Positions 1,177-40,960 of a stretch of 42,176 bases of DNA are shown one piece after another. Origin of the DNA: a virus (lineage: Duplodnaviria > Caudoviricetes). Both the position numbers and the translations under genes were made by a program. The DNA lies in IMG/VR virus record IMGVR_UViG_3300017747_002841, positions 1 through 42,176 of that record; one strand, written 5' to 3'. Within the stretch, counting starts at the first letter, position 1. Each line of letters starts with the position of its first letter. The notes beneath the pieces were generated by a model. It did not search any database. It was not told the DNA's origin and saw nothing but the letters and a program-made list of their open reading frames with translations.

Positions 1177-1367
1177 GTCCCCAACCCGTCCCCAGAATGG
1201 CCCACGAATCGAAAACATCGCCAGAATCCGAAAAGGCGACAGCTTCGAACCCTGTCGCTCCGACCACCTCTTTCCCGCCAATCCTTGAGAATCAGTCTGT
1301 TTCACAAAACGAACTGTTCCCAAGTCCTTCAGTCTTTTCTGAAAACAGTCCCCAACCGTCCCCAAAA
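1177..1367 (+). mobile_element. attP: tRNA-Pro 3'-end core (1244-1266) flanked by putative arm-type repeats
   Basis: TTCGAACCCTGTCGCTCCGACCA corresponds to T-loop, T-stem, acceptor 3' strand and CCA. GTCCCCAAC(C)CGTCCCCA tandem repeats occur at 1177-1194 and 1348-1364, immediately downstream of int. Confidence 0.8.
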
Positions 1368-1726: not shown

Positions 1727-1903
1727 ATGATCACCCGAACACGGCGCATCTGTCCGAATTGTAAATCCCGCCGCGTGATCAAAGGCAAGCGACTATGCGA
1801 CGATTGCCGCATCAGTCGTGTTATCGCGCGACAGGAAAAGCTTTTGCCTTCAACATCTCCGCCGCCTTCTTCGCCGTCGCCTTGCGCGCCTCCCGCGCCT
1901 TGA
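1727..1903 (+). CDS. Small Cys-rich (CxxC...CxxC) hypothetical protein
   Basis: ATG at 1727 just after the preceding gene; CPNC and CDDC motifs. Its 3' end overlaps the convergent giant gene. Confidence 0.4.
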   Translation: MITRTRRICPNCKSRRVIKGKRLCDDCRISRVIARQEKLLPSTSPPPSSPSPCAPPAP

Positions 1904-4900: not shown

Positions 4901-7900
4901 TCATTTCAGAATCCAACAGGTACGGGTAACGCCCCTCGTCCCGTGCGAAATCCTCCACGCCCACCACGTTTGCCAGGTAATCATTGTGATACCCGGCATC
5001 CTTCATTTTCGTGATCAGATAGTTTTCAAAGGACCGCGCCGCCCGCTCGATGATTCTCGACCAGTAGCCACCGGATTTCCCGGCGTCAATCAACTGCGCC
5101 CGCTTGGCCATTGGCGAGGCGTCCAGCGCCCGCACCAATTCAGCAAACGCGCTCGCCACCTCCGGCCGCACCCCTTCGACGCGTTTCCAGTCGCCAGGCG
5201 TGCGGATGCCCCGCCGCGTGCTCAGTTCGTTGAACCGTGTTTCCGACAATTTGAAGCCCTGACTGTTCTCGTAATACGTTTCCGGCTGATACGTGATGAA
5301 TCGCCCTTCCCGATCCCCGGACGCGCCTCGATGACGTTGGAAATAATTATCCAGCGCGTGAAACCATTCATGACCGAGACTGCCCGCGCCCCGCGTCTTC
5401 GTCAGGTTGATCACGAATGTTCCCGGCTCAAAGTGCGCCGATGCCCACCCATGCCCGCGGGAGCCAAGCCCCAGGCCAAGCTCGCCATTGAGCGAAATGG
5501 AATTCGACGGCACACCCACGATCGCCGCCAGATCCATCAAGCCGTCATACGCCGCGTTCAGCATCCCCTGCCGCTCTTTGAGGTTCTTGCCCTGCGATAC
5601 CCAATTGCCAAACTCCACCCCACGGAAGCCAAACGTCTCCATGAACATTTCCGGCGTAGCGTCGCGCCCTTGTCGATGGTCGGCGCCGGCCCGTTCCCGG
5701 TTCGCTTCCCGGCGCACGTCCGTTTCCTTGACGTTATCCGTCTCCTTGACGCCCTCCCACGCCTGCAAAAGCTCGCCGTAATTATCCGGATTTCGGGCAA
5801 AATCGAGCGCCTCCTTGGCCGTCGGAAACGTCTTCAACTTGCGCACCAGCGGATCACCCTCCTTGTTGATGAAATACCCACGTTCATCGCTTCCCCTCAC
5901 TTGAAAGCGCATTCGTTGCTCCGGCTCCGCGCTGGCCAGCAACGCCTTTACCTTCTCCGTGATTCCTTCCAGGCTCGAATCGCGAATGGTTTTGCCATCG
6001 ACCACCGCCACCGCCGAAGGACTTGGAATCTTCGCGTCGCCGGAATATCGGTAAGCGTCCGGAAACACTTCCACCTTCTCCACCCTGCCCCACTCGCTCC
6101 GCGGCACCTCGCGCAGCACCCGGATCTTGTTCACCAGTTGCTCCAGCTTGTAGCCATCCATCCGGCGCATCACCTCATCTGGCCCCTTCTCTTTCGTGAT
6201 CCGCATCAATTCCCGCACCAGCTTCACCCGTTCCACCCAGCGCGCCACCTTATAGCGTTGCCGCGGCTTGCTTGGAATCTCCTCGCGAACCGCGTGAGCA
6301 ATGGACGCCACCGCAATATCTTCGATCTCGTCCACCTCAGACTTTGGCCAGATTTCCGAAAACGATTTGGTTGCCAGCTCTTCGTCGGTAAAATCGCGGT
6401 TCAACGACGGCTGTAAATCTTTCCGCGCGCCCCCCAATTTCTGCCCGAAATCCTGCAAACCAGAAACCGGCGCCGCCACGGGCTCCGTCTTGGCCGCGCT
6501 GACGGTCGGCAAATCCTGTTGATGCTTGTCCAAAGCGGATTCCATTTGATCGCGCCGCAATGCTGCCTTCGCGGCGGAGACAGTTTCAAAATAACTGCGA
6601 CCACTCTTTGAACCAATGACTTGAAAGACATGCTTTCCTTGTCCTTTCGCCCGCTCGACGACTTTGAAGGATTCATCGCCCAATTCTCTGGCGTTATTAA
6701 GCGCGCCGGGATTCTGCTTCTCGAAGTCCAGTTGGGCGCGCGTTTTTGTCTGCGGCAGCTCCTGCTGATTCTTCTCCTTGAATTCCTTGGCCGCGCGTTC
6801 GGTTTCCTCGCGTTGACGCCGTTCCGCCTCGATGCGTTCGCCGCTCTGCGTCTGTTCGGAAAACAGGTTGAACGCGACATCTCCGCTCCCCAGCAAGTCG
6901 CCTTGCTTCTGCCCACTCTTGAGCGTCGGCGCCGCCGGCTTTGTTCCACCTTGTTCCACCGCCGTTTGGTCCGTTTCTGGCTTCTTTAGGCTATCACTGA
7001 TAGCCTCAAGCGTCGGGAAACTGTCCGCGCCCTCCTCCGCCACGCTCTGCCATTCCTCCGCGTAAATCGTGGTTCCGTCCTGGAGCACCTGCCGTCCGAA
7101 CCGCGTCCCGTCCTGCAACGTCACCTCGCCATCCGGCGACACCTCGACCACACGCACCGGCTCGCCATCGATGTTCAGCGTGTCGCCCACCTTCATCTCC
7201 GACACTGGCACACCCACCGCGCCCTTCTCGATGGACTGGCTGAAATCCGCGCTTTGTCGTTGCGACCCCGTCACGTTGGCCTCCACCCATTCCTTGAGTC
7301 TCGCCGCCAGCGCGCCGCGTTTGGCCGTATCGCTCAAGTCCACGTCCTTTGCGCCAATGGCCGCCGCCGCCTGCTTGCGCGCTTTGGCCAGCTCTTTCGA
7401 GCGCAGAATCTTGGCCTTGATGCTTCCCGTGCCGTGTCCCGTCTTCACGTTCACCGCGTCGTCATACAAGTGTTCCGGCGACGTCACCCAACCCGCCTGC
7501 ATGGCGTTTTCCAACACCAGCCGATCAAACTCCCGCGCGCCTTCCCGCGCCACCGCTGCCGCCGTCGGAGGTTTTGGCGGTTTAGCTGGCTTGACAGGCT
7601 GGACGGGAGGAACAGGTTCGACCGGCTTGGCCTGCGCCTGCATCGCCGCCTCTAAATCCACCACCGGCTTCACCTCCGGCACTTCCACATTTGCGACGGG
7701 ACTCCCCACATTTGCGGCCGGAATTTCCACCTTTGCGCTTTCCACCTCCACATTTGCGTTCCGGCGCGCCCGCATCCGGCGCAATGCCGCCGTAGCCCGT
7801 GCGTCGCCCATGCCTTCGAGCAATTCCAGTTCAAGGCGGCTCATCCCCTCGTAATTCTTGTCCGGATTCTGGACGGCCGCCTTCACCGCCTCATCGGTCT

Positions 7901-9176
7901 TGCGCTGGAATTCCACCGCGGCCCGCTGTTCCTCCGTCAACGCCGCCGGCACTTCCACCCGTTTCTCGACCACTACCGGATCACCCGCCACCGCGCCCGC
8001 CGGTTCCGGCTGCACCTTCGGCAACGCGCCCTTGAGCCGTTGACTCCCCGGCGCCTCCCCGCGCAGCACCGCCTGCAGCTCCGCCAAAGCATCCGCCGAC
8101 GTATCGGCCGGCGGTGCCGCCGGCTGACTCCTGACTTCTGGCTCCTGACTCCTTTCCTGCCCCTCCTCCGGCAACACCTCATAACCCCGCGATTCCCCGC
8201 GCAGATTGCTGAACACCTCACCCGGAGCCGTCGCCAGCTCGCCGATCGCTTCCGCCGCGATGTCCTTTGCGCTGATGTCCTGTCCGCTGGCCAGTTGCGC
8301 CGTCGCCTCACCCGCCGCGCCGCCCGCCATCTGCGCGCCCAGCTCCTTGCCCGTCGCCACCGCTACGCGCCCGACACCCTTACCCAGCGCCGGCTTGAGG
8401 AACTTGCCCGCCAAGCCCGCCGTCAAACCGTCAAAGAGCGCAATGGGAAAGCCCCGTTGCATGGCGAACGCCTTGGCCTGCTTCACCTTGGCCTCGTCCG
8501 AGAAGAACGCGCGCACCTGCTCCGGATCGGCCAGGTTGACGCCCTGCTCGTTGGCCGCTTCCAGGAAGGCATTCGCCGCCTCCACCGTAAACGATCCCGC
8601 GCCCGCACCCACCGCCGCGCCACCGGGACCAGCCGCCGCGCCGGCTGCCATGCCCGCCGCCATGCCGGTCGCCGCCTGTGGCAAGGATTCCGCGAAGATG
8701 TTCGCCGTGATCTCGACCGGATTGCGCGCGAACACCTGCCACCAATTGGAATTGTCCGCCTTGCTCCATTCCTGCATGGCCGCGCTTTGCGGGATCTGGT
8801 TTGCCCGCTGCGTCAGATCTCCGATGTTCTGAGCCGTGGCGATGTTCTGTTCCTTGGCCGGGCCCATCGCCGCCTTGAGCCGCGCCGCTGGCCCGAAGAG
8901 GCTTTCCACCTTGGCCGGATCCTCCGCGCTCATCAGTCCCTCCATGTAACGCGGATCCTCCATCGCGCCCACAAAGGCGCGCCGGCCCTGTCGGATGGTT
9001 GGCTTGTCGTCCTTGAATTGCAGCGCCTCAATCGACCGTTGCCCGGCCAGATTCCCGCGCTTGAAGCTGTTGGCGATGCCCTCCAGCGTCCCCGGCGTCT
9101 CTGCCGGTTCGTCGCCTAGAATCTCATACCCGCCCGGCGTGGCCGGCGCTTCGTCCTCCAGAATGTCGTAAGGCAT
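1821..9176 (-). CDS. Giant internal virion/ejection protein with large-polyvalent-protein (LPD1-like) and zincin-like HExxH region
   Basis: 2451 aa, last gene of the virion operon. Motifs DFGQKLGGARKD, FGFRGVEFGNW, INLTKTRGAGSLGHEWFHALD and YWSRIIERAARSFENY are typical of phage/plasmid large polyvalent proteins. Confidence 0.8.
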   Translation of the reverse strand: MPYDILEDEAPATPGGYEILGDEPAETPGTLEGIANSFKRGNLAGQRSIEALQFKDDKPTIRQGRRAFVGAMEDPRYMEGLMSAEDPAKVESLFGPAARLKAAMGPAKEQNIATAQNIGDLTQRANQIPQSAAMQEWSKADNSNWWQVFARNPVEITANIFAESLPQAATGMAAGMAAGAAAGPGGAAVGAGAGSFTVEAANAFLEAANEQGVNLADPEQVRAFFSDEAKVKQAKAFAMQRGFPIALFDGLTAGLAGKFLKPALGKGVGRVAVATGKELGAQMAGGAAGEATAQLASGQDISAKDIAAEAIGELATAPGEVFSNLRGESRGYEVLPEEGQERSQEPEVRSQPAAPPADTSADALAELQAVLRGEAPGSQRLKGALPKVQPEPAGAVAGDPVVVEKRVEVPAALTEEQRAAVEFQRKTDEAVKAAVQNPDKNYEGMSRLELELLEGMGDARATAALRRMRARRNANVEVESAKVEIPAANVGSPVANVEVPEVKPVVDLEAAMQAQAKPVEPVPPVQPVKPAKPPKPPTAAAVAREGAREFDRLVLENAMQAGWVTSPEHLYDDAVNVKTGHGTGSIKAKILRSKELAKARKQAAAAIGAKDVDLSDTAKRGALAARLKEWVEANVTGSQRQSADFSQSIEKGAVGVPVSEMKVGDTLNIDGEPVRVVEVSPDGEVTLQDGTRFGRQVLQDGTTIYAEEWQSVAEEGADSFPTLEAISDSLKKPETDQTAVEQGGTKPAAPTLKSGQKQGDLLGSGDVAFNLFSEQTQSGERIEAERRQREETERAAKEFKEKNQQELPQTKTRAQLDFEKQNPGALNNARELGDESFKVVERAKGQGKHVFQVIGSKSGRSYFETVSAAKAALRRDQMESALDKHQQDLPTVSAAKTEPVAAPVSGLQDFGQKLGGARKDLQPSLNRDFTDEELATKSFSEIWPKSEVDEIEDIAVASIAHAVREEIPSKPRQRYKVARWVERVKLVRELMRITKEKGPDEVMRRMDGYKLEQLVNKIRVLREVPRSEWGRVEKVEVFPDAYRYSGDAKIPSPSAVAVVDGKTIRDSSLEGITEKVKALLASAEPEQRMRFQVRGSDERGYFINKEGDPLVRKLKTFPTAKEALDFARNPDNYGELLQAWEGVKETDNVKETDVRREANRERAGADHRQGRDATPEMFMETFGFRGVEFGNWVSQGKNLKERQGMLNAAYDGLMDLAAIVGVPSNSISLNGELGLGLGSRGHGWASAHFEPGTFVINLTKTRGAGSLGHEWFHALDNYFQRHRGASGDREGRFITYQPETYYENSQGFKLSETRFNELSTRRGIRTPGDWKRVEGVRPEVASAFAELVRALDASPMAKRAQLIDAGKSGGYWSRIIERAARSFENYLITKMKDAGYHNDYLANVVGVEDFARDEGRYPYLLDSEMKPVAEAFDKLFKAVKVVGRDPVDAQLTEWIEKLGLKPGALYEGVTGAPVWLTRAAARGVLQVVRAAYRAGKSIANAVQDGIEWLRGQNIPGFDETEAKEWLDGQAVDDVATSLRRQINALGAEMDAFKERGEEIPAAMLDEYKELVDTLGDEIRSGRANSGAGRVKVDDNLEESGARSQESGRELRGIPQWNGAERLPGGRLKDLFTGLGAWRVKSGNWLARRGARETTVVNRDVADNRANQAANAASLRVRLILNRAFDTKPGQVRVKHEGREAALTFVVEADGERSRLSDFYDQISASEHADTKAGRQALAALEYAAANWDKLQPAAAEYKTLTETEREAELNEGVNSPEWKGGYVKHSWARDDVGAGADPTKPAAAGTPFRKPRSVATYAEGIAQGRKPTTLNALELLADRVAGGQRKLNELAWVHGLRNLMDPATDMPVVVDVIKKPRKPANLPAEDSERAQAQDEAGITYKPDWVTIAPEGYTVWRFGELEVAVQENFVGLLNKLTAASFFKGSSAKKVFGFIKSSLLMFDTFHLGRMVAWRQMFGLGGGYQKGQTLLDFSAADIREMAARGEIPEAWADGLQENKRRLDLALRTGFNVGNVLDNAWGDALHNLPVVGTFNHWLFGQYQRGAMTEAWLIEFERMSRALPNASEEQVARRVSKDLNARFGNLNRQGLFKSRTAQDLARFVFLAPQWNESLIRAELGAIVQTLKTPMESIQQRRLVVGTLMRATGAMALGTFLANQILNYAFRGKPTWENEEEGWDKKISAYIPDAVSGGPGFFLNPLALPMEYTHLIEGNLHRSGGDLSEALRRVAVSRLHAAARPAEMFLTRKDALGAKLRDGEVLPAMAKALIPIPIGAVSPATAAKQLISGEPSERFPGQYQKQMMASFGVKTDQAPTAEQRIRNLAREFNREKGIVPSAEFFTGDFDELNKALRIGNNTEARKALDELLLKKTPRQVFDHYKRVAAAPFTGQQAREKEFWRGLTEEQRGQYVKAREARKATAKKAAEMLKAKAFPVAR
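4358..4387. repeat. 30-bp heptamer-based repeat, copy 1
   Basis: CTGACTCCTGACTTCTGGCTCCTGACTCCT, identical to 8124-8153. Confidence 0.85.
8124..8153. repeat. 30-bp heptamer-based repeat, copy 2
   Basis: Identical to 4358-4387 but translated in a different frame of the same gene. Confidence 0.85.
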
Positions 9177-11573: not shown

Positions 11574-12164
11574 TCAAACCTGTGGGTAAAGTTCTCGGAT
11601 CAAACTCAGTTTCGGCTTCATCGGACTCTTTTCCTGAAACGGTCGCACACTCAGGGTTTGCAGCATTTGCGCCCGGCGCGCGTCCCACTTCACGCCAGGC
11701 ACGCAATGCTTCCAAATGCGCTCAAGAGTATCAGTGCGCTCCAGCGACTCGTATGGAACTTCCATGCAACGCGTCCACTGGATGATCTCCAAGCGGGCGC
11801 GTTCCCACCGAGCGAGCATTTCCTGTCTCAGTTCCCATGTGCAAGACACCGCCTCTTTCCACGGTCCTTCGCTTACAAACTGACAAAGGCTATGCCAAGC
11901 CTCATCGAAATCCCGCGTGATCAACACCCACGGCGCATCGGGAAACTCGCGCTTTACGATGGAGTAATACGCGAGCAACCCGCTGTCTGAATCGCCTACC
12001 CGTCCCGTCTTCATTCCGTCACGCAACTGCGCGCAAAGTGCTGCCGTGCTTTCCACCAAGCCTAACAAATCGTGATGACAAAACACGTTCCCAGTAGTGA
12101 ACAGGTTCGCCAGCCACGTTGTCCGGCTTTGAGGCAGCCCGGTAATGAAGAACGGTTGCACCAT
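11574..12164 (-). CDS. Sulfotransferase-like P-loop-fold protein
   Basis: N-terminal FFITGLPQSRTTWLANLF resembles the 5'-PSB loop; WVLITRD...S resembles the 3'-PB motif; VPYESL. Confidence 0.6.
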   Translation of the reverse strand: MVQPFFITGLPQSRTTWLANLFTTGNVFCHHDLLGLVESTAALCAQLRDGMKTGRVGDSDSGLLAYYSIVKREFPDAPWVLITRDFDEAWHSLCQFVSEGPWKEAVSCTWELRQEMLARWERARLEIIQWTRCMEVPYESLERTDTLERIWKHCVPGVKWDARRAQMLQTLSVRPFQEKSPMKPKLSLIRELYPQV

Positions 12165-30066: not shown

Positions 30067-30689
30067 GGCGCCTCCGATTCAAAAGTCCCGCCCACGTTGA
30101 TGCTTCCGGCGCTCGTTGCGCCAACCGTCACGACCAACGGTCTCCCCTTTTCGCCAACGGCCACAAATGAATTTCGCGGACTGGTCGCGCCATTGGTGAT
30201 TCCGTACGCCCAGGTATTAGTCCCGATCCTCCACAACCTCGACCCGGCAGCGATGGAAACAGTGTTGGACGTAAGAAACGTCAAGTTCGTGCCGATCAGG
30301 TGAACGGACGCCAACACATATGCATCGTTCGGCGTGTTTCCGGTTTGGATCACCACCTTGTCACCCGTCACCAACCCGTTTGTTCCACTTTGAGCAACCT
30401 GCACGTTGGTCAATCCGGCCACCATTCCGTAAGGGATGTCCACTGAAGCGCCATTGGTATAAAACGTAACGCGGGCGTTGCCGAGATCAGTCAGCACCTC
30501 CACCGTCCGCACCACGGCAATCCTATCCCCAACTGCCGGGACAATGCAGTAGAAGTTAGTCGTGCCAAGTGCGTTGTTTGGAGCCGCGAAGAAACGCGTA
30601 TTCGTCGCCGCCTGGACAACCGTGATGACAGGGAGGAGCAGCATGGACACCACCACCACCATGCGCGCCGTGATTCGAGGGATTTTCAT
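30063..30689 (-). CDS. Exported Thr/Asn-rich beta protein
   Basis: Signal peptide MKIPRITARMVVVVSMLLLPVITVVQA; many TN dipeptides. Confidence 0.7.
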   Translation of the reverse strand: MKIPRITARMVVVVSMLLLPVITVVQAATNTRFFAAPNNALGTTNFYCIVPAVGDRIAVVRTVEVLTDLGNARVTFYTNGASVDIPYGMVAGLTNVQVAQSGTNGLVTGDKVVIQTGNTPNDAYVLASVHLIGTNLTFLTSNTVSIAAGSRLWRIGTNTWAYGITNGATSPRNSFVAVGEKGRPLVVTVGATSAGSINVGGTFESEAP

Positions 30690-30727
30690 AGATGTTGAGT
30701 CAGTTGAATGTTTGAAGTCTTACCATA

Positions 30728-30770
30728 GGACAATCCATGTCTAACCACCTTGGACATTCCATGTCAAACC
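30728..30770. promoter_or_regulatory. Tandem 19-bp direct repeat upstream of the head operon
   Basis: GGACAATCCATGTCTAACC and GGACATTCCATGTCAAACC (17/19 identical, 24-bp period) in an AT-richer intergenic region. Confidence 0.5.
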
Positions 30771-30905
30771 CTATTTGCAAAAGCGGCGCGAACGCCCTCG
30801 CGCCCGCGCCTTTTTATACGCCTTGCAAAACCCCCGTCGTCGCTGAACTATTCCGCCTCGTATTCAAGCCCGCTTTCAGGCTGGGGGATTTCCACCACCG
30901 AAAGC

Positions 30906-30941
30906 AAAGCCCGATGGTGTTAGTGCGCCATCGGGCTTTTT
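30906..30941. terminator. Intrinsic terminator, probably bidirectional
   Basis: AAAGCCCGATGG-N10-CCATCGGGCTTT 12-bp stem with T tract, immediately after the ORF ending at 30945. Confidence 0.7.
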
Positions 30942-30944
30942 CGT

Positions 30945-31181
30945 TTAACCCGGAGGTTTGTTGCTGCGATCGTCCAAGGAAATCGTAATGCGCATCTCCT
31001 GCCCGCACGTCTCAACCGAAAATCGTTTTTGGATGCCAACGAGAATTTGCGGAATCTGCTCCTTGCACCGCCGGCGAACACGTTCCGCTGCGGTAACCGT
31101 TTCCTCCTCCACGATTTCCTCCAATCGCCTTTGAATCGCTTCCTTCAACACCTTTTCAAATCCGCCCTGAATATCTGCCAT
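30945..31181 (-). CDS. Hypothetical protein (78 aa)
   Basis: ATG preceded by purine-rich AAAAAGGAACAGAA; follows terL. Confidence 0.6.
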   Translation of the reverse strand: MADIQGGFEKVLKEAIQRRLEEIVEEETVTAAERVRRRCKEQIPQILVGIQKRFSVETCGQEMRITISLDDRSNKPPG

Positions 31182-31225
31182 TTCTGTTCCTTTTTCTGAG
31201 TTTTTGAGTTCCGGCTAAAATCAGT

Positions 31226-32740
31226 TCACCCCGCATCAAACCCCCGCAACACATCCTCACTCACCGTCGGCTCCGCCCCCTGGTCCTCGCCAATGTAAGG
31301 CCCGAACGTGCTATAAGGATTCACCGCCCGCTCCTCGCCCCCGATGTTGATCGAATGCATCACAGGTAGGTTGCCCATCGCCCCCAGAATCACCTCCGCC
31401 CGGTCTGGCGACCGCTGCGGCCGTTGGTCCCGAGCCTGCCGCGCGAACAGATCGCGCTTCGACTCCACCCAGCGCAACCCGCTCGAATCATATTTGCCAA
31501 TCCGATCCACCAGTTGCCCCTTGAAATCCGTATCATCCGGAATGATGACGCGCCGCTGCTTGATCGCCTCCGTCCCGTTAAACCAGTTTTCGCTCTCCCG
31601 ATTCCGGAACTTGTCCGGCTCAAACGCCCGCGCGTTCGCGTGATACTCGAGGATCGGCCAGCCCGCCTCCTGGATGCGTTGCACCATCGGCTTGCCCATC
31701 CCGTCCGCGTCGCCTTCCACCTCTTCCGGACGCAGCCCTATCGAGCGCCGCAATCCCTCCAGCTTCGTAATGAACCGTCCCACCGCGCTCATGGTGTTCT
31801 TGTCCCGCCAAACGTCCTCGAACCAAGTCTTGTTCCCGCGCCGCACGCCGATGCTGTTCTCGTCCCCGCCCGCCGCGAAATCGAGCCGCACATGCCGATC
31901 CGTCCCCTTCTGCCCCGGCGGTTCATTCACGCAATCCGCGATCTCCGTCAGCCCGATCAGCGAATCCTGCACGAACGGCATGAACTTCGCGAAAAATGCC
32001 GATTGAATAAACGGATCCTGCAACCCCCGATCGTAATCCCCACCCCCGGCGCGCGTGATCACCCGCTTCATCTCCTCGCGGTCAATCCACGGGCAATCCT
32101 CCACCGTCATTTGAAACGTGTTCCAGAACTTCGCCTCCGTGCTTTGAGACTCGTAGAATTTGCCCATCGCAAACCCCGGCGAACTCAGCAACCCCATCCG
32201 CTGCGGCCGGCAACGATCCTCACCCGCCCGGATGATTCCATCCGCCACTGACTTGCATTCGTCGAAAAGCATCATCAGCGGCGTCTCTGGCGACCCGTGG
32301 AAACCCTCCGCCCGCCCCGCCTGACTCGCCGAGTAAGCCATGAAGTTCGGCACCCCGCCAATCTTGATCTCCGTGTCCTGGAATTCCCAACTCGCCGGGA
32401 ACTTGTGCGAATAACTCCGGAGCGCCGGCATTAGTTGATTCTTAATCTGCGCCCAGCTTCCACTGGTTGCCGTCACGCCCCCGTTCTCACCCCGCCGCGG
32501 GAACACCGTCAGGTGCCACAGAATCACCGCCGGCATGATCTTCGTCGTCTTGCCCGCCTCATTACAGCACACGAACGACACATGCGACCGCGTGGGCCCG
32601 AATGCGTTCACGATCGCCTCCTGCTTCACCGTCAGCGGAATCCCGAGCTTGAACCGCGCAAACCCCGCCGGCGTCGCCAGCGCCATCCGCACCTTCTCCG
32701 GCAAGCTCGACACCGCCACCCGTTTATCATCCTTAGCCAT
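31226..32740 (-). CDS. terL: Terminase large subunit
   Basis: Walker A NEAGKTT, Walker B LMMLFDE, coupling motif LSSP, RNase H-like LDFAAGGDE / DADGMG / SPDRAE. Confidence 0.9.
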   Translation of the reverse strand: MAKDDKRVAVSSLPEKVRMALATPAGFARFKLGIPLTVKQEAIVNAFGPTRSHVSFVCCNEAGKTTKIMPAVILWHLTVFPRRGENGGVTATSGSWAQIKNQLMPALRSYSHKFPASWEFQDTEIKIGGVPNFMAYSASQAGRAEGFHGSPETPLMMLFDECKSVADGIIRAGEDRCRPQRMGLLSSPGFAMGKFYESQSTEAKFWNTFQMTVEDCPWIDREEMKRVITRAGGGDYDRGLQDPFIQSAFFAKFMPFVQDSLIGLTEIADCVNEPPGQKGTDRHVRLDFAAGGDENSIGVRRGNKTWFEDVWRDKNTMSAVGRFITKLEGLRRSIGLRPEEVEGDADGMGKPMVQRIQEAGWPILEYHANARAFEPDKFRNRESENWFNGTEAIKQRRVIIPDDTDFKGQLVDRIGKYDSSGLRWVESKRDLFARQARDQRPQRSPDRAEVILGAMGNLPVMHSINIGGEERAVNPYSTFGPYIGEDQGAEPTVSEDVLRGFDAG

Positions 32741-33687
32741 CAGGCCATGACCTCCAGCGGACTCCGCACGCTCATGGCCTCTGCGTGCAAGTAACCCATC
32801 GTCGTCTCCAGCGACTTGTGCCCCATCGCCTGCTGAATCGCCCGCGGGTTCGTGCCTTGATTCAAGCAGTGCGTGGCGTAAGCGTGCCGCAACTCATGCG
32901 GCTTGATGTTCCCGCCGCTGGCCTGGCGAATCGCAAGCTGCACGTTCGCCTCGTGCAACCGATACCGCACCAACTCACCCGTGCGCGGATGTTCACACGC
33001 CGCCTTCTGCGGAAACACCCACGCCCATTTCCACGCGAACCGGCTTTGCGGATACTTCTTGCCCAGCAAGCCCGGCAATTGCAGCGGCAGTCCGTTGGCC
33101 ACGTCCCGCTTCCAAGTCACCTTCGCCGCTTCCATCGCATCGCGCAGACCAGCGTGCAGCGAGCACGGCAACGGAACGACGCGATCCTTGCCGCCCTTCG
33201 CCCCACGAATGACGAGGCGCTGATTCTGCAACTCCACATCCTTCACGCGCAGATTGCACGGCTCCGTCACGCGGAGACCGCACCCGTAAATCAGATGCGT
33301 GATCAGTCGCGTAGGATAGCCATGCACATCTTTAACCGCGGCCAGCAACGCACGCACCTCTTCCCGGCTGGGAGCCTCGCGCAACGTCACCGGCTTGTTG
33401 GCCCGCAACGCATCAATCCGCGCCAGTGGTTGTCCCACGATCTCGCGATAAAACATCACCAGCGCATTGAACGCCTGATTCTGCGTCGAAGCCGAAACAT
33501 CCTGCCGCGCCAACTGCGACAAGAACGCCTCCACCTTTTGCTCGCCCGTCATCCCCGCCACAGGCTCGCCGGCCAGAAAGCGCATGTACCGCGCCAGCCA
33601 CGCCAGATAACTCTGCTCCGTGGACAGCGCAAAATGCTTTAACCGCATGTAACCACGGAACTTGTCGAATGCTTGGCTTGGTTTCAT
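32740..33687 (-). CDS. intI: Integron integrase (IntI-type tyrosine recombinase)
   Basis: N-terminal MRLKHFALSTEQSYLAW...VSASTQNQAFNAL; YGCGLR, KGGKDR, HELRH, MGH...TTMGY; the integron-specific insertion LPGLLGKKYP...WKWAWVFP...HPRTG is present. Confidence 0.92.
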   Translation of the reverse strand: MKPSQAFDKFRGYMRLKHFALSTEQSYLAWLARYMRFLAGEPVAGMTGEQKVEAFLSQLARQDVSASTQNQAFNALVMFYREIVGQPLARIDALRANKPVTLREAPSREEVRALLAAVKDVHGYPTRLITHLIYGCGLRVTEPCNLRVKDVELQNQRLVIRGAKGGKDRVVPLPCSLHAGLRDAMEAAKVTWKRDVANGLPLQLPGLLGKKYPQSRFAWKWAWVFPQKAACEHPRTGELVRYRLHEANVQLAIRQASGGNIKPHELRHAYATHCLNQGTNPRAIQQAMGHKSLETTMGYLHAEAMSVRSPLEVMA

Positions 33688-33703
33688 ATAGCAATGAGCG
33701 GTT

Positions 33704-33722
33704 GTCTAATCACTTGTTAGAC
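33704..33722 (+). mobile_element. attI-like simple site (L box GTCTAAT, 5-bp spacer, R box GTTAGAC)
   Basis: Lies 16 bp upstream of the intI start; GTTAGAC is the exact complement of the R'' box (GTCTAAC) of the next attC. Confidence 0.7.
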
Positions 33723-33923
33723 ATTTTGGCCCACGAGTGCGGTTTCGAGCCTGTCCACTTGCTTTTCAAGGTCTTTGATTTTTGCCAGTAGTGCATCGGC
33801 TGGCTTTTCGAGCGCGGAGGCCATCACGACGACTTTTGTGGCCTGTTCGGATGCTGGGAGTTTTTCGATCTCTTGGCAGAGGTCGTAGATGTCTTTGTAT
33901 ATCGGATGAGCGAGTATGTTCAT
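33717..33923 (-). CDS. Cassette 1 ORF, 68-aa helical/coiled-coil hypothetical protein
   Basis: Fills the cassette exactly; its TAA stop lies inside the attI R box. Confidence 0.7.
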   Translation of the reverse strand: MNILAHPIYKDIYDLCQEIEKLPASEQATKVVVMASALEKPADALLAKIKDLEKQVDRLETALVGQNV

Positions 33924-34010
33924 AAATGTCTAACCATTCAGTGCAGGCAACGGCGGGTTGCGCTGCGGGTTTATTTCGAGCCGTCAGGTCCGCCGTGCCT
34001 GACTTCACCG
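33717..34010 (+). mobile_element. Integron gene cassette 1 (294 bp)
   Basis: Runs from G/TTAGAC to G/TTCGGC; the end boxes GTTAGACATTT and AAATGTCTAAC are perfect 11-bp complements. Confidence 0.8.
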
Positions 34011-34016
34011 TTCGGC
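33928..34016 (+). mobile_element. attC site 1 (89 bp)
   Basis: R'' GTCTAAC; left arm AGT(G)CAGGCA(A)CGGCGG pairs with right arm CCGCCGTGCCTGACT leaving two extrahelical bases; R' GTTCGGC. Confidence 0.88.
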
Positions 34017-34579
34017 TTCAAGAACGCGCACCAGTGCGTTTTCGCCTGCTTGCCGGTGCGGTGGCCGTAAAGCGGTTGCACTGGCGTCAGTGCCAGTATT
34101 TCGCGCAGCGGCACTTCGATTTCGTTCCACTTGAAGATGAGTGTGCCTTCGGGTTTCAGGACGCGGAAGCACTCCGCGAATCCGAGGCGCAGCATCTCGC
34201 GCCAGTCACCGCGCAGGACGCCATACTTTTTGAGCAGCCAGCTCGTATCCCCGTTCCGTTGGATGTGCGGCGGGTCGAAGATGACGTGCGCGAATGTGTT
34301 GTCATCGAACGGCAGGTCTGTGAAGTCGGCTACGATGTCAGGGTCTATCACGATTTCTCGCTCGCCATTCTTCACTGAGCAGTCAGCGGCCAGATGTTTC
34401 TCACGGCGCTTGTCGAGGTAGATTGCCTGCGGATTCTTGCGGTCGAACCAGAACATCCGAGACCCGCAGCACACGTCCAGCACTGAAGCCGAACCATGCG
34501 CTGCACGCGAACAGCCGCCCCGCTTCTCCGTTTCGGGAGTCGCGAGCGGCAGGACGGTTTGCGTGTCGGCGTGAGTCAT
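33971..34579 (-). CDS. Cassette 2 ORF, class I SAM-dependent (probably DNA amino-) methyltransferase
   Basis: VLDVCCGSRMFWFD (SAM binding), VIFDPPH (catalytic-like), ECFRVLKPEGTLIFKWNE; a family common in phages. Confidence 0.85.
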   Translation of the reverse strand: MTHADTQTVLPLATPETEKRGGCSRAAHGSASVLDVCCGSRMFWFDRKNPQAIYLDKRREKHLAADCSVKNGEREIVIDPDIVADFTDLPFDDNTFAHVIFDPPHIQRNGDTSWLLKKYGVLRGDWREMLRLGFAECFRVLKPEGTLIFKWNEIEVPLREILALTPVQPLYGHRTGKQAKTHWCAFLKPNGEVRHGGPDGSK

Positions 34580-34606
34580 TGTCGGCGGCTGTCGGTGAGC
34601 TTGTCG
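34011..34606 (+). mobile_element. Integron gene cassette 2 (596 bp)
   Basis: Starts GTTCGGCTTCA (34010), whose exact complement TGAAGCCGAAC (34484-34494) opens attC2. Confidence 0.8.
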
Positions 34607-34612
34607 TTCTCT
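34488..34612 (+). mobile_element. attC site 2 (125 bp)
   Basis: R'' GCCGAAC; left arm GCT(G)CAC(G)CGA(A)CAGCCGCC pairs with GGCGGCTGTCGGTGAGC leaving three extrahelical bases; R' GTTCTCT. Confidence 0.85.
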
Positions 34613-34613
34613 C

Positions 34614-34633
34614 TGAGTTTATGAGTTTCGGCT
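34614..34633. repeat. Dispersed 20-bp repeat TGAGTTTWTGAGTTYCGGCT (also at 17951, 31197 and 38904)
   Basis: Four same-strand copies, all at gene boundaries. Confidence 0.8.
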
Positions 34634-34637
34634 AAAA

Positions 34638-35120
34638 TCATTTCTTTTCCCCCACGTACATCGCCTTTGCCATCTTCTCCAACTCCGCCGCCTCCGCCAT
34701 CGTCAGCCCGCCGCTTTCCCCGTGGCTCTCCGCCGGCTTATGCACCTCCGTCTTGTTGAAATGCGGCTTGTAACGCCGCTCCAGCACCCAGGCGAACCCC
34801 GTCCACGGACGGATCCGCGTCTTCGTTACCCCATCCTTGTCCATCTCCGTCGCGCCCGCGGCATCGCGGTAAATAATCTCCTCACCGCCCTCCTTGATCG
34901 CCTTCAACGCCCGCGCCATATACCGCGCGTGTTTCAACAGCATGATCTCGCGGAAATCCTCGCGCCGACTCACCACCGGCCCAAACGTCGAAGCATTCAC
35001 ACCGACGAGCGCACACGCGTAATCCTGCGGAATCCCGTCCGCCATATACTCGCCCACCTCCTCGACAATCTGCCGCGTGATCTTCCGCGGACGCCCGCCC
35101 TTGGATTTCTTTTTGGTCAT
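34638..35120 (-). CDS. terS: Putative terminase small subunit
   Basis: GGRPRKIT start, HTH-like YACALVGVNASTF, WTGFAWVLERRY motif; would directly precede terL if the integron were removed. Confidence 0.65.
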   Translation of the reverse strand: MTKKKSKGGRPRKITRQIVEEVGEYMADGIPQDYACALVGVNASTFGPVVSRREDFREIMLLKHARYMARALKAIKEGGEEIIYRDAAGATEMDKDGVTKTRIRPWTGFAWVLERRYKPHFNKTEVHKPAESHGESGGLTMAEAAELEKMAKAMYVGEKK

Positions 35121-35923
35121 CGCGCCACCCTTCCCGCCGCACCCGTCCGGATCCGGCTCAAATAAACCTGGTTCGCATACCCCGGCAGATTCCGCACAAA
35201 CGGCCGGCGCGCCGCCGCCTCCTCAATCGCGAACACCACCAAGTCCGCGTTTTCCTTCACGCGCCGCTCCCACAACTCCGCCGCCCCTGGACGCAGCTCC
35301 GTCAGATACTGCGCGATCATCGCCCGCGCCTGCGCTCCGTCCCCGGTCCCCTTCCGGATTCCGGAACTCACATGATCATGATTAAGGCATGTTCTTTCAG
35401 TGGCATGTTTCGGAACATGATCATGATCAGAACCATGATCGCGAGCCGTCCGGATTCCGGATGGGACTCGTCCGGATTCCGGATGCCCCTTTCCCGAATC
35501 CGGTAATGCCTCTCCCGATTCGGGAGAACCATCCACCGCCGCCCTCATGCGCCCGACCATGCTGCCCACCGCCGGCACCGCCAACGCCTCGCTCATGCTC
35601 ATGCTCTCCGTCGCCAGCGCCAGCCGCGCCGCCACAGATTTGCCCCGCCATGCTTCCAACCATGCTGCGCGCTCCATGCACTCCGTCACGCGCCAAAACT
35701 CCACCGGCTGCACCCGCACCACCATTCCCTCCACCGCCCGAGCCTCCAGCGTCACCCCGCCCAGGCGCTCACACTCCCGCATCGTCTCCAGCACATGATT
35801 GCGCGGAATGCCCGTGCGCGCCGACCACTCCGCCACCGACACCGGCCCGCCGTCTCGCAACGCCGCCACCAGCAACCGCAACGCCTGCGGACGCCACTTA
35901 AAGCGCAACAGCTCCGTAGTCAT
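35117..35923 (-). CDS. Putative replication initiator (N-terminal HTH, internal iterons)
   Basis: Probable ATG at 35923; wHTH-like SVAEWSARTGIPRNHVLETMRE; linker built on DNA repeats; C-terminal VRNLPGY motif. Confidence 0.6.
   Translation of the reverse strand: MTTELLRFKWRPQALRLLVAALRDGGPVSVAEWSARTGIPRNHVLETMRECERLGGVTLEARAVEGMVVRVQPVEFWRVTECMERAAWLEAWRGKSVAARLALATESMSMSEALAVPAVGSMVGRMRAAVDGSPESGEALPDSGKGHPESGRVPSGIRTARDHGSDHDHVPKHATERTCLNHDHVSSGIRKGTGDGAQARAMIAQYLTELRPGAAELWERRVKENADLVVFAIEEAAARRPFVRNLPGYANQVYLSRIRTGAAGRVAR
35353..35525. promoter_or_regulatory. Putative replication origin (iterons)
   Basis: TCCGGATTCCGGA-like palindromes at 35353, 35449, 35471, 35492 and 35513 (21-22 bp spacing); CATGATCATGAT at 35371 and 35416. 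Confidence 0.6.
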
Positions 35924-36269
35924 GCGATCCTTTCTCCCGTTCCAGCCACACCACCACCGGCTCAATATGCACCGTCGGCTTGGCCACCATCGAATTCGTA
36001 AACCGGAACACCCGCCACCCCAGGCGCGCCGCGGCATTATATTTCTCGCAATCCGCCGCAAACCCGAGCCCGCGCGTATGCCGCCCGCCCGTCCATTGTC
36101 CTCCCTCGATCTCGATCGCCACCCGGCGCGCCGGCAGCGCGAAGTCAAAGCGCCACTTCCGCGCCGGATCAAACCTCACCTCCGCCGTCAACTTCGGCCC
36201 GCCCAGCGCGCGCCAATAGTGCGCGAACGTCGCCGATAGCCTGCTATCGTTGGATTTCACGCGCCTCAT
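35898..36269 (-). CDS. PD-(D/E)XK endonuclease (Vsr/DUF559-like)
   Basis: EVRF...RKWRFDFA...VAIEIEGG...GRHTRG...DCEKYNAA..LGWRVFRFT. Confidence 0.85.
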   Translation of the reverse strand: MRRVKSNDSRLSATFAHYWRALGGPKLTAEVRFDPARKWRFDFALPARRVAIEIEGGQWTGGRHTRGLGFAADCEKYNAAARLGWRVFRFTNSMVAKPTVHIEPVVVWLEREKGSHDYGAVAL

Positions 36270-36499
36270 CGTTTCTGAATCGGTTCAATCGCTGGTGCCT
36301 GCTGCGCCCTCGGCTCGGGAGCGGACTTTGCCAGATACTCCTCCCAGAACTTCAAACGCTCCAGTTGCTCCTCCGTCGGAGCGCGCAACGAGCGCCACAC
36401 CTTGATCCGCCACAGGATCGTTTCGCGAAAGGGAGAACTGACCGGAGCCGCGCCATCCGTTGGCGTCTCATCGCTTCCATGCGTCTCGGCTCCGGCCAT
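36266..36499 (-). CDS. Hypothetical protein
   Basis: Packed in the operon with an ATGA overlap. Confidence 0.55.
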   Translation of the reverse strand: MAGAETHGSDETPTDGAAPVSSPFRETILWRIKVWRSLRAPTEEQLERLKFWEEYLAKSAPEPRAQQAPAIEPIQKR

Positions 36500-36506
36500 A
36501 AACTCT

Positions 36507-37349
36507 CTACGCGCCGATCAACACCGGCACCTTCGTTTCATCCGCCACGGTCAACAGCACCGCCTTTGCTGCGTCACGGATGACCAGGTGAGGCGTTACC
36601 GTCTCATACCAAAACACCAGCGCCTTGCTCACGATGCGATAACGCAGCCGCGCCTGTACCCGGTAATGCGGCACCCCACTAAACGGCTGAATCAGCAACA
36701 GCAGCTTCGCCGGCACTTCCATCGAGCCAGCAACCACCCCGCCGCGCAGCTCCACGTCCTCCTCGAAATCCAGCTTGTTCTTGCCGCTGTTCAATCGGAT
36801 AGCCGTGTTGAATCTCACATTGCTCTTGCCTTCCAGCGTGGACACCAGCTCCAGTAAATCCGCGCCAGACGGCGATTCAAACACCCGCTCATTATCCTCC
36901 AGGAACAGCGCAAATTCTGTCTGAGTGAACGGCTTTTCCCCGCCGTTCCGCTTCATCCACGTCGCCCATTCCTGCGTCACTTCGAGCGTCAAATGCGCCT
37001 GATGCGTGCTCCAGGCACGAGCGTTTAACGCCGTTTCCAGCGTCGTCTCGTTGTGATAATCCAGATGCGCCACCAGCTTGCAGCCGGTATCGGACACCGA
37101 CGCAAAGATCAGCGTGCCCGCCGTCGTGAACCGCTTCACGTACGCCGCGAAGCTCTCCGGCTCCGTAAACGTCACCGACCGCGGCACCTTCGCCGCCTCG
37201 TGTTTCAGTGTTTCCAGCTTGTAACCCTGCGGAATCACCACCGTCGGCACGGAGCCAAACGATGACACCACCGCACCCATTGAACGCCCTGCATCCAGCA
37301 ACGCCTGCACGTTGTCAGGAATCTTCACCGCGATATTTTGATCAGCCAT
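36507..37349 (-). CDS. DUF2303/YfdQ family protein
   Basis: ESFAAYVKR...AHLDYH...W..H...QTEFALFLEDN...IQPF...ARLRYR pattern. Confidence 0.85.
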   Translation of the reverse strand: MADQNIAVKIPDNVQALLDAGRSMGAVVSSFGSVPTVVIPQGYKLETLKHEAAKVPRSVTFTEPESFAAYVKRFTTAGTLIFASVSDTGCKLVAHLDYHNETTLETALNARAWSTHQAHLTLEVTQEWATWMKRNGGEKPFTQTEFALFLEDNERVFESPSGADLLELVSTLEGKSNVRFNTAIRLNSGKNKLDFEEDVELRGGVVAGSMEVPAKLLLLIQPFSGVPHYRVQARLRYRIVSKALVFWYETVTPHLVIRDAAKAVLLTVADETKVPVLIGA

Positions 37350-40264: not shown

Positions 40265-40861
40265 TCACGCCGCCACCTCCGCCTTCAGCTTCATCGCGCA
40301 CGGCGGACAAATGCCGTGACTCACCGCGCCCGTCGCGCCCGGCATCGGCAGATCCGCCCAAAGCCCGTCAACGCGCCACTGCTTGCACCAAGCGCACTGC
40401 ACTTGCAGCCCCACCTTTGCCGCCAGCCACTTCTCCGCATCCACGCCGAACACCACATCCCCGATCGGCACCTGCGACACATGCCCCGTCTCGGGATGCC
40501 GCACGGAAACCATCACCACGCGCGTCCGCTCATCGAGCCACGAGACAAGCGCCTCGTGCCACTCGCCCGGATGCTCCCCCGTTGTCTTCGGGATGCACCG
40601 GCTCGCAAGAGGAATGTTGAACGGCTCCGCGTTCATGCCGCCTCCACATCCCGCCGAATCAACCGGCGCACATACTTCGAGAAATCCAGATCCGGCTCGG
40701 ACTGAACCCGCGCCTCGACCTTCGGCCACATCGCCTTCAGCCAGCAACTTCGCCCGCTGGCAGCTTTGGCACACACGTTCCGAGTGTTTGCCGGGAAGCT
40801 CGAACTGCTTCCAACACACCTGGCACAGCGCCTCGTATCGGAATGTTTCAGTCCTGTTCAT
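40265..40861 (-). CDS. Hypothetical Cys-rich protein (alternative internal start at 40636)
   Basis: Both possible starts overlap the TGA of a repeat copy; CAWC...SHGICPPC C-terminal motif and CQVC/CQSC N-terminal motif. Confidence 0.55.
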   Translation of the reverse strand: MNRTETFRYEALCQVCWKQFELPGKHSERVCQSCQRAKLLAEGDVAEGRGAGSVRAGSGFLEVCAPVDSAGCGGGMNAEPFNIPLASRCIPKTTGEHPGEWHEALVSWLDERTRVVMVSVRHPETGHVSQVPIGDVVFGVDAEKWLAAKVGLQVQCAWCKQWRVDGLWADLPMPGATGAVSHGICPPCAMKLKAEVAA

Positions 40862-40960
40862 GCCGCCTCCACATCCCGCCGGATCAACCGGCGCACATAC
40901 TTGGAAAAATCCAGATCCGGCTCGGATAACACCCGCGCCTCGACCTTCGGCCACATCGCC
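40631..40960. repeat. 105-bp direct repeat (40631-40735 and 40856-40960), 225-bp period
   Basis: 98/105 identical by manual comparison. Confidence 0.9.

What the first reader, a model, noticed from the sequence alone, without database searches (positions are those of the whole stretch)
32740..34637. A complete integron carried by a phage, inserted between terS and terL
Seen: an intact IntI-type integrase (full R-K-H-R-H-Y set plus the integron-specific insertion), an attI-like site at 33704-33722, and two cassettes closed by well-formed attC sites (33928-34016, 34488-34612) with extrahelical bases and matching R boxes. The phage already has a separate integrase and tRNA attP, so IntI is not needed for lysogeny. 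Established: integrons are known mainly as chromosomal or transposon/plasmid platforms. Inference: the phage runs its own cassette capture and shuffling system inside the packaging operon, and may exchange cassettes with host integrons.
Basis: partly seen in the sequence, partly recalled or inferred. Interest (0 to 1): 0.93.

Follow-up and report, generated by a model that had tools for sequence, protein, structure and literature searches.

The report
Phage-run integron with reversed gene cassettes
This phage genome carries a complete integron (a gene-capture device known mainly from bacteria) between its two DNA-packaging genes, with the captured genes facing backwards so that the phage's own operon would read them; related phages show the same layout with swapped cassettes, so phages likely run their own gene-swapping system, rich in predicted DNA-protecting methylases.

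Summary
Confirmed. The 42-kb circular temperate-phage contig holds an intact IntI (TIGR02249 above cut-off), an attI at 33704-33722 and two true cassettes. Each attC's first core box (R'') matches the previous crossover box (R') 7/7. This is a family trait. Of 42 viral loci with enough upstream DNA, 40 have attC arrays. Reversed ORFs hit PHROGs in 26 of 85 cases (14 DNA-modification enzymes), forward ORFs in 1 of 82. Bacterial arrays run forward. Phages 99.9% identical downstream carry different arrays that diverge at the attI crossover, so exchange is ongoing. The terS-terL position is incidental. Exchange with hosts is unsupported: no shared cassette proteins in a small sample. The integrase clade also contains chromosomal Verrucomicrobiota integrases. 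Published phage integrons (Qi 2023) were host-derived, and I found no paper on this layout. This scan has found the same family before on other DNA. No recombination assay exists.

The parts
32740..33687 (-). intI, integron integrase, 315 aa; its stop codon overlaps the terL start by one base
   Evidence: TIGR02249 above cut-off; 2A3V alignment; catalytic residues; dN/dS 0.05-0.09 against L001 and L002
33704..33722 (+). attI simple site (left box 33704-33710, 5-nt spacer, core 33716-33722, crossover after 33716); the core lies only 28 nt from the intI start codon
   Evidence: sequence; the same motif at a similar distance in other phage loci; arrays of near-identical phages diverge at this point
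33717..34010 (+). cassette 1 (294 nt): reversed ORF plus attC1
   Evidence: R''/R' 7/7 complementarity
33717..33923 (-). cassette 1 ORF, 68 aa, conserved protein of unknown function; its stop codon lies in the core box
   Evidence: 31 database hits at E<=0.001, one being itself, with variable C-terminal tails; no Pfam, PHROG or PADLOC hit
33928..34016 (+). attC1, 89 nt; extrahelical bases at 33943 and 33949 on the top strand
   Evidence: a 95% identical site closes a different first cassette in phage locus L384
34011..34606 (+). cassette 2 (596 nt): reversed ORF plus attC2
   Evidence: R''/R' 7/7 complementarity
33971..34579 (-). cassette 2 ORF, 202 aa, predicted orphan DNA methyltransferase; starts inside attC2 and ends inside attC1, so its last residues come from the neighbouring cassette
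   Evidence: PHROG 954 E 2.3e-71; PADLOC MTase_II and oMTase; 58% identical cassette protein in L022
34488..34612 (+). attC2, 125 nt; three extrahelical bases on the top strand
   Evidence: first 40 nt 97.5% identical in phage locus L383
34576..34641 (-). 21-codon bridging ORF: starts overlapping the terS stop, ends overlapping the methyltransferase start (possible translational coupling through attC2)
   Evidence: function inferred
33920..33937 (-). 5-codon ORF whose stop overlaps the cassette 1 start
   Evidence: could be chance
34638..35120 (-). terS, upstream flank
   Evidence: PHROG 4102 E 1.7e-11
31226..32740 (-). terL, downstream flank
   Evidence: homologues named phage terminase large subunit; lies upstream of portal and capsid genes

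Best explanation
This is a complete integron of a widespread phage-borne family whose cassette genes are reversed; it likely works as the phage's own gene-swapping device, read by the phage operon rather than by an integron promoter. SHOWN: intact IntI, attI and two cassettes with canonical sites; genes on the strand opposite to bacterial cassettes; the same layout in dozens of phages; arrays that change exactly at attI among near-identical phages; a cassette that travels with the attC at its gene's 5' end. INFERRED: (1) one transcript runs terS, cassette 2, cassette 1, intI, terL, so IntI is made whenever the packaging operon is on, with no SOS control. (2) During phage replication the attC bottom strand folds and IntI excises cassettes (attC x attC) and inserts circles at attI, as in class 1 and Vibrio integrons. 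The bottom strand is here the coding strand and, by GC skew, probably the lagging-strand template. (3) Circles pass between co-infecting phages or prophages. (4) Every cassette is expressed, so the array is an always-on accessory slot rather than a silent reserve. (5) The frequent methyltransferase, Mom-like and PAPS-reductase-like cargo protects phage DNA from host restriction. (6) Reversal makes host and phage cassettes antisense in each other's arrays, which keeps the two pools apart.
For: IntI; attC; 92 of 120 chained cassettes have 4/4 complementarity in the variable R-box bases, chance 1/256 each (6 of the 120 are duplicate loci); 40 of 42 viral loci with at least 700 nt upstream have an attC within 2 kb. 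Orientation: PHROG hits 26/85 reversed against 1/82 forward; longest ORF reversed in 45 of 60 phage cassettes (9 forward, 6 ties), forward in 24 of 27 Verrucomicrobiota and 17 of 19 control cassettes. Exchange: L043/L044/L045, L040/L041 and L017/L018 are 99.9% identical downstream and diverge at attI; the first cassette of L018 is a distal cassette of L017; L003 has one cassette twice, 99.6% identical from crossover to crossover. Operon embedding: attI core 29-53 nt from the intI start in 33 of 38 loci, intI stop overlapping an ATG or GTG in 27 of 46; no sigma-70-type promoter in 30500-36600. dN/dS 0.05-0.09.
Against: No recombination or expression data for this element. No excised circle or reordered array in the contigs of run X1, though contigs drop rare variants. 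A relative in runs X2 and X3 (one study) has a 749-nt deletion inside intI, so the enzyme is dispensable and a host IntI could act in trans. The integrase clade is not phage-only: 42 viral, 17 genome and 16 metagenome rows, and the viral label needs 15 changes (quick tree). attC2 does not fold better than shuffles. Family-wide translational coupling is only slightly above the null (41 of 59 against 34.7 +/- 3.0; 15 of 500 shuffles reach it). 59 of 85 reversed ORFs have no PHROG match, so anti-restriction explains only part of the cargo. The promoter scan may not cover Verrucomicrobiota promoters.
Confidence: 0.82

Rival explanations
1. The platform and cassettes are real, but the shuffling is done mostly by the host's chromosomal IntI. 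The phage copy is a passenger that was repeatedly picked up from Verrucomicrobiota chromosomes.
For: Chromosomal integrases 49-60% identical, with similar attI sequences, lie inside the same clade. A relative has a deleted intI with attI kept. IntI1 recombines phage attC sites (PMC9892861).
Against: dN/dS 0.05-0.09 among three phage copies at dS 0.6-0.8. The deepest branch of the clade and several supported subclades are all or mostly viral. intI is fitted into phage operons by stop/start overlaps.
Confidence: 0.09
2. A piece of a host chromosomal integron was captured by accident, as in the Vibrio anguillarum and Shewanella phages.
For: Such captures are documented (PMC9892861). attC sites are 70-87% alike between phage and host arrays in 7 of 60 comparisons.
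Against: No host genes flank it. The cargo is phage-type and reversed, while host arrays are forward. Near-identical integrases occur in unrelated phages at other loci.
Confidence: 0.04
3. The genes are in normal orientation and the system recombines the other strand (an inverted-integrase or top-strand integron).
For: R-box complementarity alone cannot tell which attC travels with a gene. Inverted-integrase integrons exist (PMC4889954, passage).
Against: The duplicated L003 cassette carries the attC distal to intI and starts at the G|TT crossover. Arrays diverge right after the attI GTT. The extrahelical bases lie on the same arm as in Vibrio, Shewanella and class 1 controls, where annotated genes run with the sites.
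Confidence: 0.03
4. Chimeric assembly of a host integron into a phage contig.
For: The contig is a metagenomic assembly, and no raw or long reads were available.
Against: Contigs of run X1 with 0 differences span terL-intI (31528-33177) and intI-array-terS (33236-34999) at depths 39.8 and 33.3 (X1 may be the source sample). An independent relative has the same terL-intI junction (X2, X3). The overlapping reading frames fit exactly.
Confidence: 0.02

Closest known systems
Integrons and CALINs in phage genomes (Qi, Rajabal, Ghaly, Tetu, Gillings 2023, PMC9892861; main text read, supplement searched)
   Same: intI, attI and attC in phages; methyltransferase cassettes proposed as anti-restriction. 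One listed cassette protein from MW202573 belongs to the same methyltransferase family as cassette 2.
   Different: Their 3 complete integrons among 10,705 phages were a captured Vibrio chromosomal piece, a class 1 mosaic and a cryptic Shewanella prophage. The main text describes no reversed-gene layout, phage-resident IntI lineage or array turnover among phages. The TJE1 array they tested is forward by my detector.
Sedentary chromosomal integrons (Vibrio VchIntIA, PDB 2A3V; Verrucomicrobiota chromosomal integrons fetched here)
   Same: Same enzyme family, attI and attC anatomy, site polarity relative to intI, and cassette size (median 425 nt in phage, 482 nt in Verrucomicrobiota).
   Different: Genes reversed; little room for Pc or PintI between attI and intI; intI sits at the 3' end of the array's transcript; ORFs run through attC sites; the platform occurs at many different phage loci.
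Class 1 mobile integrons, including those on P1-like phage-plasmids
   Same: A mobile element carrying a full integron.
   Different: IntI is about 34% identical; no transposon and no resistance cargo; reversed genes.
Inverted integron-integrase group (Treponema; PMC4889954, passage)
   Same: intI and the cassette genes point the same way.
   Different: There intI is inverted relative to the attC sites. Here intI and the sites are canonical and the genes are inverted inside the cassettes.

Membership tests
Integron | IntI-family tyrosine recombinase with full catalytic set and integron-specific insertion | tested here: met
   TIGR02249 266.6 > 265; residues; 2A3V alignment; groups with IntI-like rows apart from 4 distant recombinases that I labelled Xer-like by low identity only (support 90). 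IntegronFinder's own HMM was not available.
Integron | attI site next to the 5' end of intI acting as insertion point | tested here: met
   33704-33722; arrays of near-identical phages diverge at the equivalent site
Integron | attC sites with R''/L''/L'/R' boxes and extrahelical bases | tested here: met
   detector polarity checked on Vibrio, Shewanella and class 1 arrays; minimum-energy folding is not significant for attC2
Integron | Cassettes are mobile units bounded by G|TT crossovers | tested here: met
   7/7 R boxes in the window; 92 of 120 family-wide; duplicated and relocated cassettes
Integron | IntI-catalysed attC x attI recombination on the folded bottom strand | not testable with these tools
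   needs a recombination assay
Canonical (Pc-driven) integron | Cassette genes co-oriented with attC and transcribed away from intI | tested here: not met
   genes are reversed
Canonical (Pc-driven) integron | Pc and PintI promoters, often a LexA box, in the intI-attI region | tested here: inconclusive
   only 28 nt between the intI start and the attI core; no sigma-70 consensus hit in 30500-36600; a Pc inside intI or a non-consensus promoter cannot be excluded
Inverted integron-integrase group | [quoted passage not shown] | tested here: not met
   intI on the minus strand, attC sites on the plus strand pointing away from it
Host-captured chromosomal integron fragment | Array is a subset of a host array, with host genes nearby | tested here: not met
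   flanked by terS and terL; no shared cassette protein with 60 bacterial cassettes; the actual host genome is not in hand

The most novel reading that the evidence does not exclude
Phages of Verrucomicrobiota-type hosts run a mirror-image integron system of their own. A mobile intI-attI module drops into phage operons and draws on a phage-only pool of reversed cassettes enriched in DNA-modifying counter-defence genes. Reversal keeps this pool silent in host integrons, which stock anti-phage cassettes, and places the recombinogenic strand where replication unwinds it most. Cassettes also borrow their protein tails from whichever cassette lies next. Some chromosomal Verrucomicrobiota integrases may descend from the phage lineage.
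Probability: 0.55. Interest if true: 0.92.

Novelty: new variant of a known kind. Interest (0 to 1): 0.82.

Why it matters
Integrons are treated as bacterial devices, recently shown to stock anti-phage defences (10.1101/2024.07.02.601686, abstract). A phage-resident version with reversed, operon-read cassettes and methylase-rich cargo would put the same engine on both sides of the arms race. It would offer a site-specific mechanism for part of phage accessory-gene mosaicism and mark hundreds of small unknown phage genes as candidate counter-defence factors that can be harvested by attC. It also bears on how cassettes are made: the rule that a gene lies upstream of its attC is evidently not a mechanistic need. 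The element is under 2 kb and testable in standard E. coli assays.

Tried and rejected
A terL search of viral contigs with the single protein found nothing; the alignment search found 489 relatives, of which 80 were kept. Rfam gave 0 hits. ARAGORN found no tRNA gene in the window. RNAalifold gave no pairs on my attC alignment, so model R1 is sequence-only and not a covariance test. The careful tree did not finish in two runs, so only the quick SH-aLRT tree is used; I left out 10 duplicate loci and rows below identity or coverage cut-offs, and ran no AU test. No RNA holder was listed; nothing is concluded on expression. The other 23 runs had small word shares; six were laid and showed short pieces only. 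Cassette 1's protein has no family. Cultured and GenBank phages gave 9 records, all under 35% identical; Virus Rctr41k has a co-oriented integrase-like gene but one attC by my detector. My detector found no array-like sites in P12002L and one site in the MW202573 stretch, so their orientation was not settled. Translational coupling as a family rule is weak. Literature: eight searches found no paper on reversed-cassette or phage-native integrons; the library lacks most subscription journals, and bioRxiv supplements were closed.
Full report
CONTEXT. The window is a whole circular contig (123-nt terminal overlap) of a tailed temperate phage: capsid, portal, terS, terL and a separate tyrosine integrase across the origin. 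There is no tRNA gene. Positions 1244-1266, just after that integrase, match the 3' end of tRNA-Pro(TGG) with at most one mismatch in 88 of 121 genomes of the order holding a Limisphaerales MAG. I ran no control outside that order, so the Verrucomicrobiota host is likely, not shown.

The 315-aa ORF at 32740-33687 passes the integron-integrase cut-off narrowly (266.6 against 265), has all six catalytic residues and aligns to VchIntIA through the integron-specific insertion. It is under strong purifying selection against its two closest phage relatives (dN/dS 0.05-0.09). A rule-based attC detector found exactly 33928-34016 and 34488-34612 and nothing in shuffles. A profile built only from bacterial attC sites found the same two, on the same strand, at E about 1e-7. 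Each R'' box is the exact complement of the previous R' box, as expected for inserted circles. Folding energy alone is unremarkable, especially for attC2. Contigs of run X1 bridge all junctions with no differences, although X1 may be the source sample.

attI and the attC sites point away from intI as usual, but both cassette genes lie on the minus strand with terS, intI and terL. Cassette 2 encodes a predicted DNA methyltransferase that starts inside its own attC and ends inside attC1. Cassette 1 encodes a conserved 68-aa protein. Stop/start overlaps link terS to a 21-codon bridge and the bridge to the methyltransferase; a 5-codon ORF overlaps the start of ORF1; intI overlaps terL. The attI core is 28 nt from the intI start.

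IT IS A FAMILY. An IntI alignment returned 66 viral loci, 51 with a full-length IntI at least 36% identical. After removing 5 duplicates and adding the window, 42 of 47 have at least 700 nt upstream, and 40 of those have an attC within 2 kb. Of 120 cassettes chained from attI, 92 have perfect R-box complementarity. Among cassettes with perfect boxes, reversed ORFs hit PHROGs in 26 of 85 cases: 10 DNA methyltransferases, 2 Mom-like, 2 PAPS-reductase-like, 2 HNH or homing nucleases, 1 other, 9 unknown. Forward ORFs hit in 1 of 82. By longest ORF, phage cassettes are reversed in 45 of 60, while Verrucomicrobiota chromosomal cassettes are forward in 24 of 27 and Vibrio, Shewanella, class 1 and Gemmatirosa controls in 17 of 19. 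Three of the five Verrucomicrobiota arrays belong to integrases outside the window's clade; in-clade chromosomal loci mostly show forward first genes by ORF listing. The platform sits before helicase or primase, terminase, portal or exonuclease genes in different phages. The 94% and 89% identical copies are in phages that share almost no other DNA with the window in the loci fetched. Two terL relatives (57%) that also share terS carry only small genes between them, and 2 of 80 terL loci hold an intI. The terS-terL position is therefore one of many.

IT IS ACTIVE IN NATURE. L043, L044 and L045 are 99.9% identical from attI downstream but share nothing upstream of the crossover; L040/L041 and L017/L018 behave likewise, and the first cassette of L018 is a distal cassette of L017. 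Four other near-identical pairs of loci showed no array difference in the stretch they share. L003 holds one cassette twice, identical from crossover to crossover and including the attC distal to intI. This shows the travelling unit is canonical and the gene inside it is reversed. Near-identical attC1 and attC2 segments close different genes in other phage integrons. A relative in runs X2 and X3 keeps the terL-intI junction and attI but has lost 749 nt of intI.

ORIGIN. In a quick maximum-likelihood tree the window's IntI lies in a 75-row clade (SH-aLRT 97) apart from IntI1, Vibrio and Shewanella enzymes. The clade has 42 viral rows, an all-viral deepest branch and nested chromosomal Verrucomicrobiota groups flanked by host genes. 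It is not phage-only. Sampling began from viral sequences, so the direction of transfer is open.

MECHANISM (inferred). Bottom-strand attC recognition fixes cassette polarity at attI (PMC8946536, passages). With the gene reversed, an inserted cassette is co-oriented with intI and read by whichever phage promoter drives the operon, so no Pc is needed and all cassettes are on. The same review states that a bottom strand on the lagging-strand template folds and recombines more. Here the bottom strand is the G-rich coding strand, which suggests that arrangement, though coding bias could cause the skew. Methyltransferase-rich cargo suggests anti-restriction. Host exchange is chemically possible (attC sites 70-87% alike in 7 of 60 comparisons), but no cassette protein was shared, and swapped cassettes would be antisense.

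WHAT IS KNOWN. Qi et al. 2023 (PMC9892861; main text read, supplement searched) found 3 complete integrons and 17 CALINs in 10,705 phage genomes and showed that IntI1 recombines phage attC sites. Their complete integrons are host-derived or class 1. A 2026 review cites only that work on this point (PMC13492144, passages). Cury 2016 (passages) describes inverted integrases, a different inversion. Darracq 2024 (abstract) shows anti-phage cassettes in chromosomal integrons. Passages of PMC13323075, PMC11023631, PMC8618304, PMC11054128 and PMC11370490 added nothing on phage-native integrons. Eight searches found no description of this layout. The scan's own notes report the same reversed phage integrons in other genomes; I had reached that reading before opening them.

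VERDICT. A real integron, a member of the family by every sequence test, but not a canonical Pc-driven one. New variant of a known kind; interest 0.82.

Noticed in passing
window 34612-34644 and 31195-31227; L002 at four places: A ~33-nt intergenic repeat follows attC2 and also follows terL. In L002 the same repeat flanks both ends of the integron and occurs elsewhere. It may help the intI module move between phages by homologous recombination.
   Followed up: partly
window 1244-1266: tRNA-Pro(TGG) 3'-end match after the phage integrase, probable attP core; matched in 88 of 121 genomes of one Verrucomicrobiota order.
   Followed up: partly
L001:2463-3770: The gene overlapped by the intI stop begins at what looks like the end of a primase domain (motif recalled) and continues as a helicase; the integron may have split a primase-helicase gene.
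   Followed up: no
run X1 laid on window 31000-35600: The same run holds sequence matching the L002 phage (89% identical IntI, different cassette), so two phages with this platform co-occur.
   Followed up: partly
L148, L075, L076, L365, L366 upstream of intI: Chromosomal relatives carry a palindrome about 30 nt upstream of intI that the phage copies lack; L365 lies next to lexA and a DNA polymerase III alpha/IMS gene. Possibly an SOS operator.
   Followed up: no
L022, L013, L021 arrays: Cassettes that begin with nearly the same attC-encoded leader peptide; in L022 and L013 the genes belong to different methyltransferase families. One attC scaffold may be re-used with new cargo.
   Followed up: no
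L369 (G013:C18): A Mu-like phage contig in a bacterial MAG carries the same reversed-cassette layout.
   Followed up: partly
L006/L007, L014, L022, L024, L033, L046, L056: Isolated attC sites downstream of intI with the same polarity; L043 and L044 also differ at a second downstream spot. Cassettes may insert at secondary sites.
   Followed up: no
window 40631-40735 and 40856-40960: 105-nt direct repeat, 93% identical.
   Followed up: no
window 1821-9176 and 11574-12164: 2451-aa large polyvalent protein (LPD1, LPD5) and a sulfotransferase-family gene among the virion genes.
   Followed up: no
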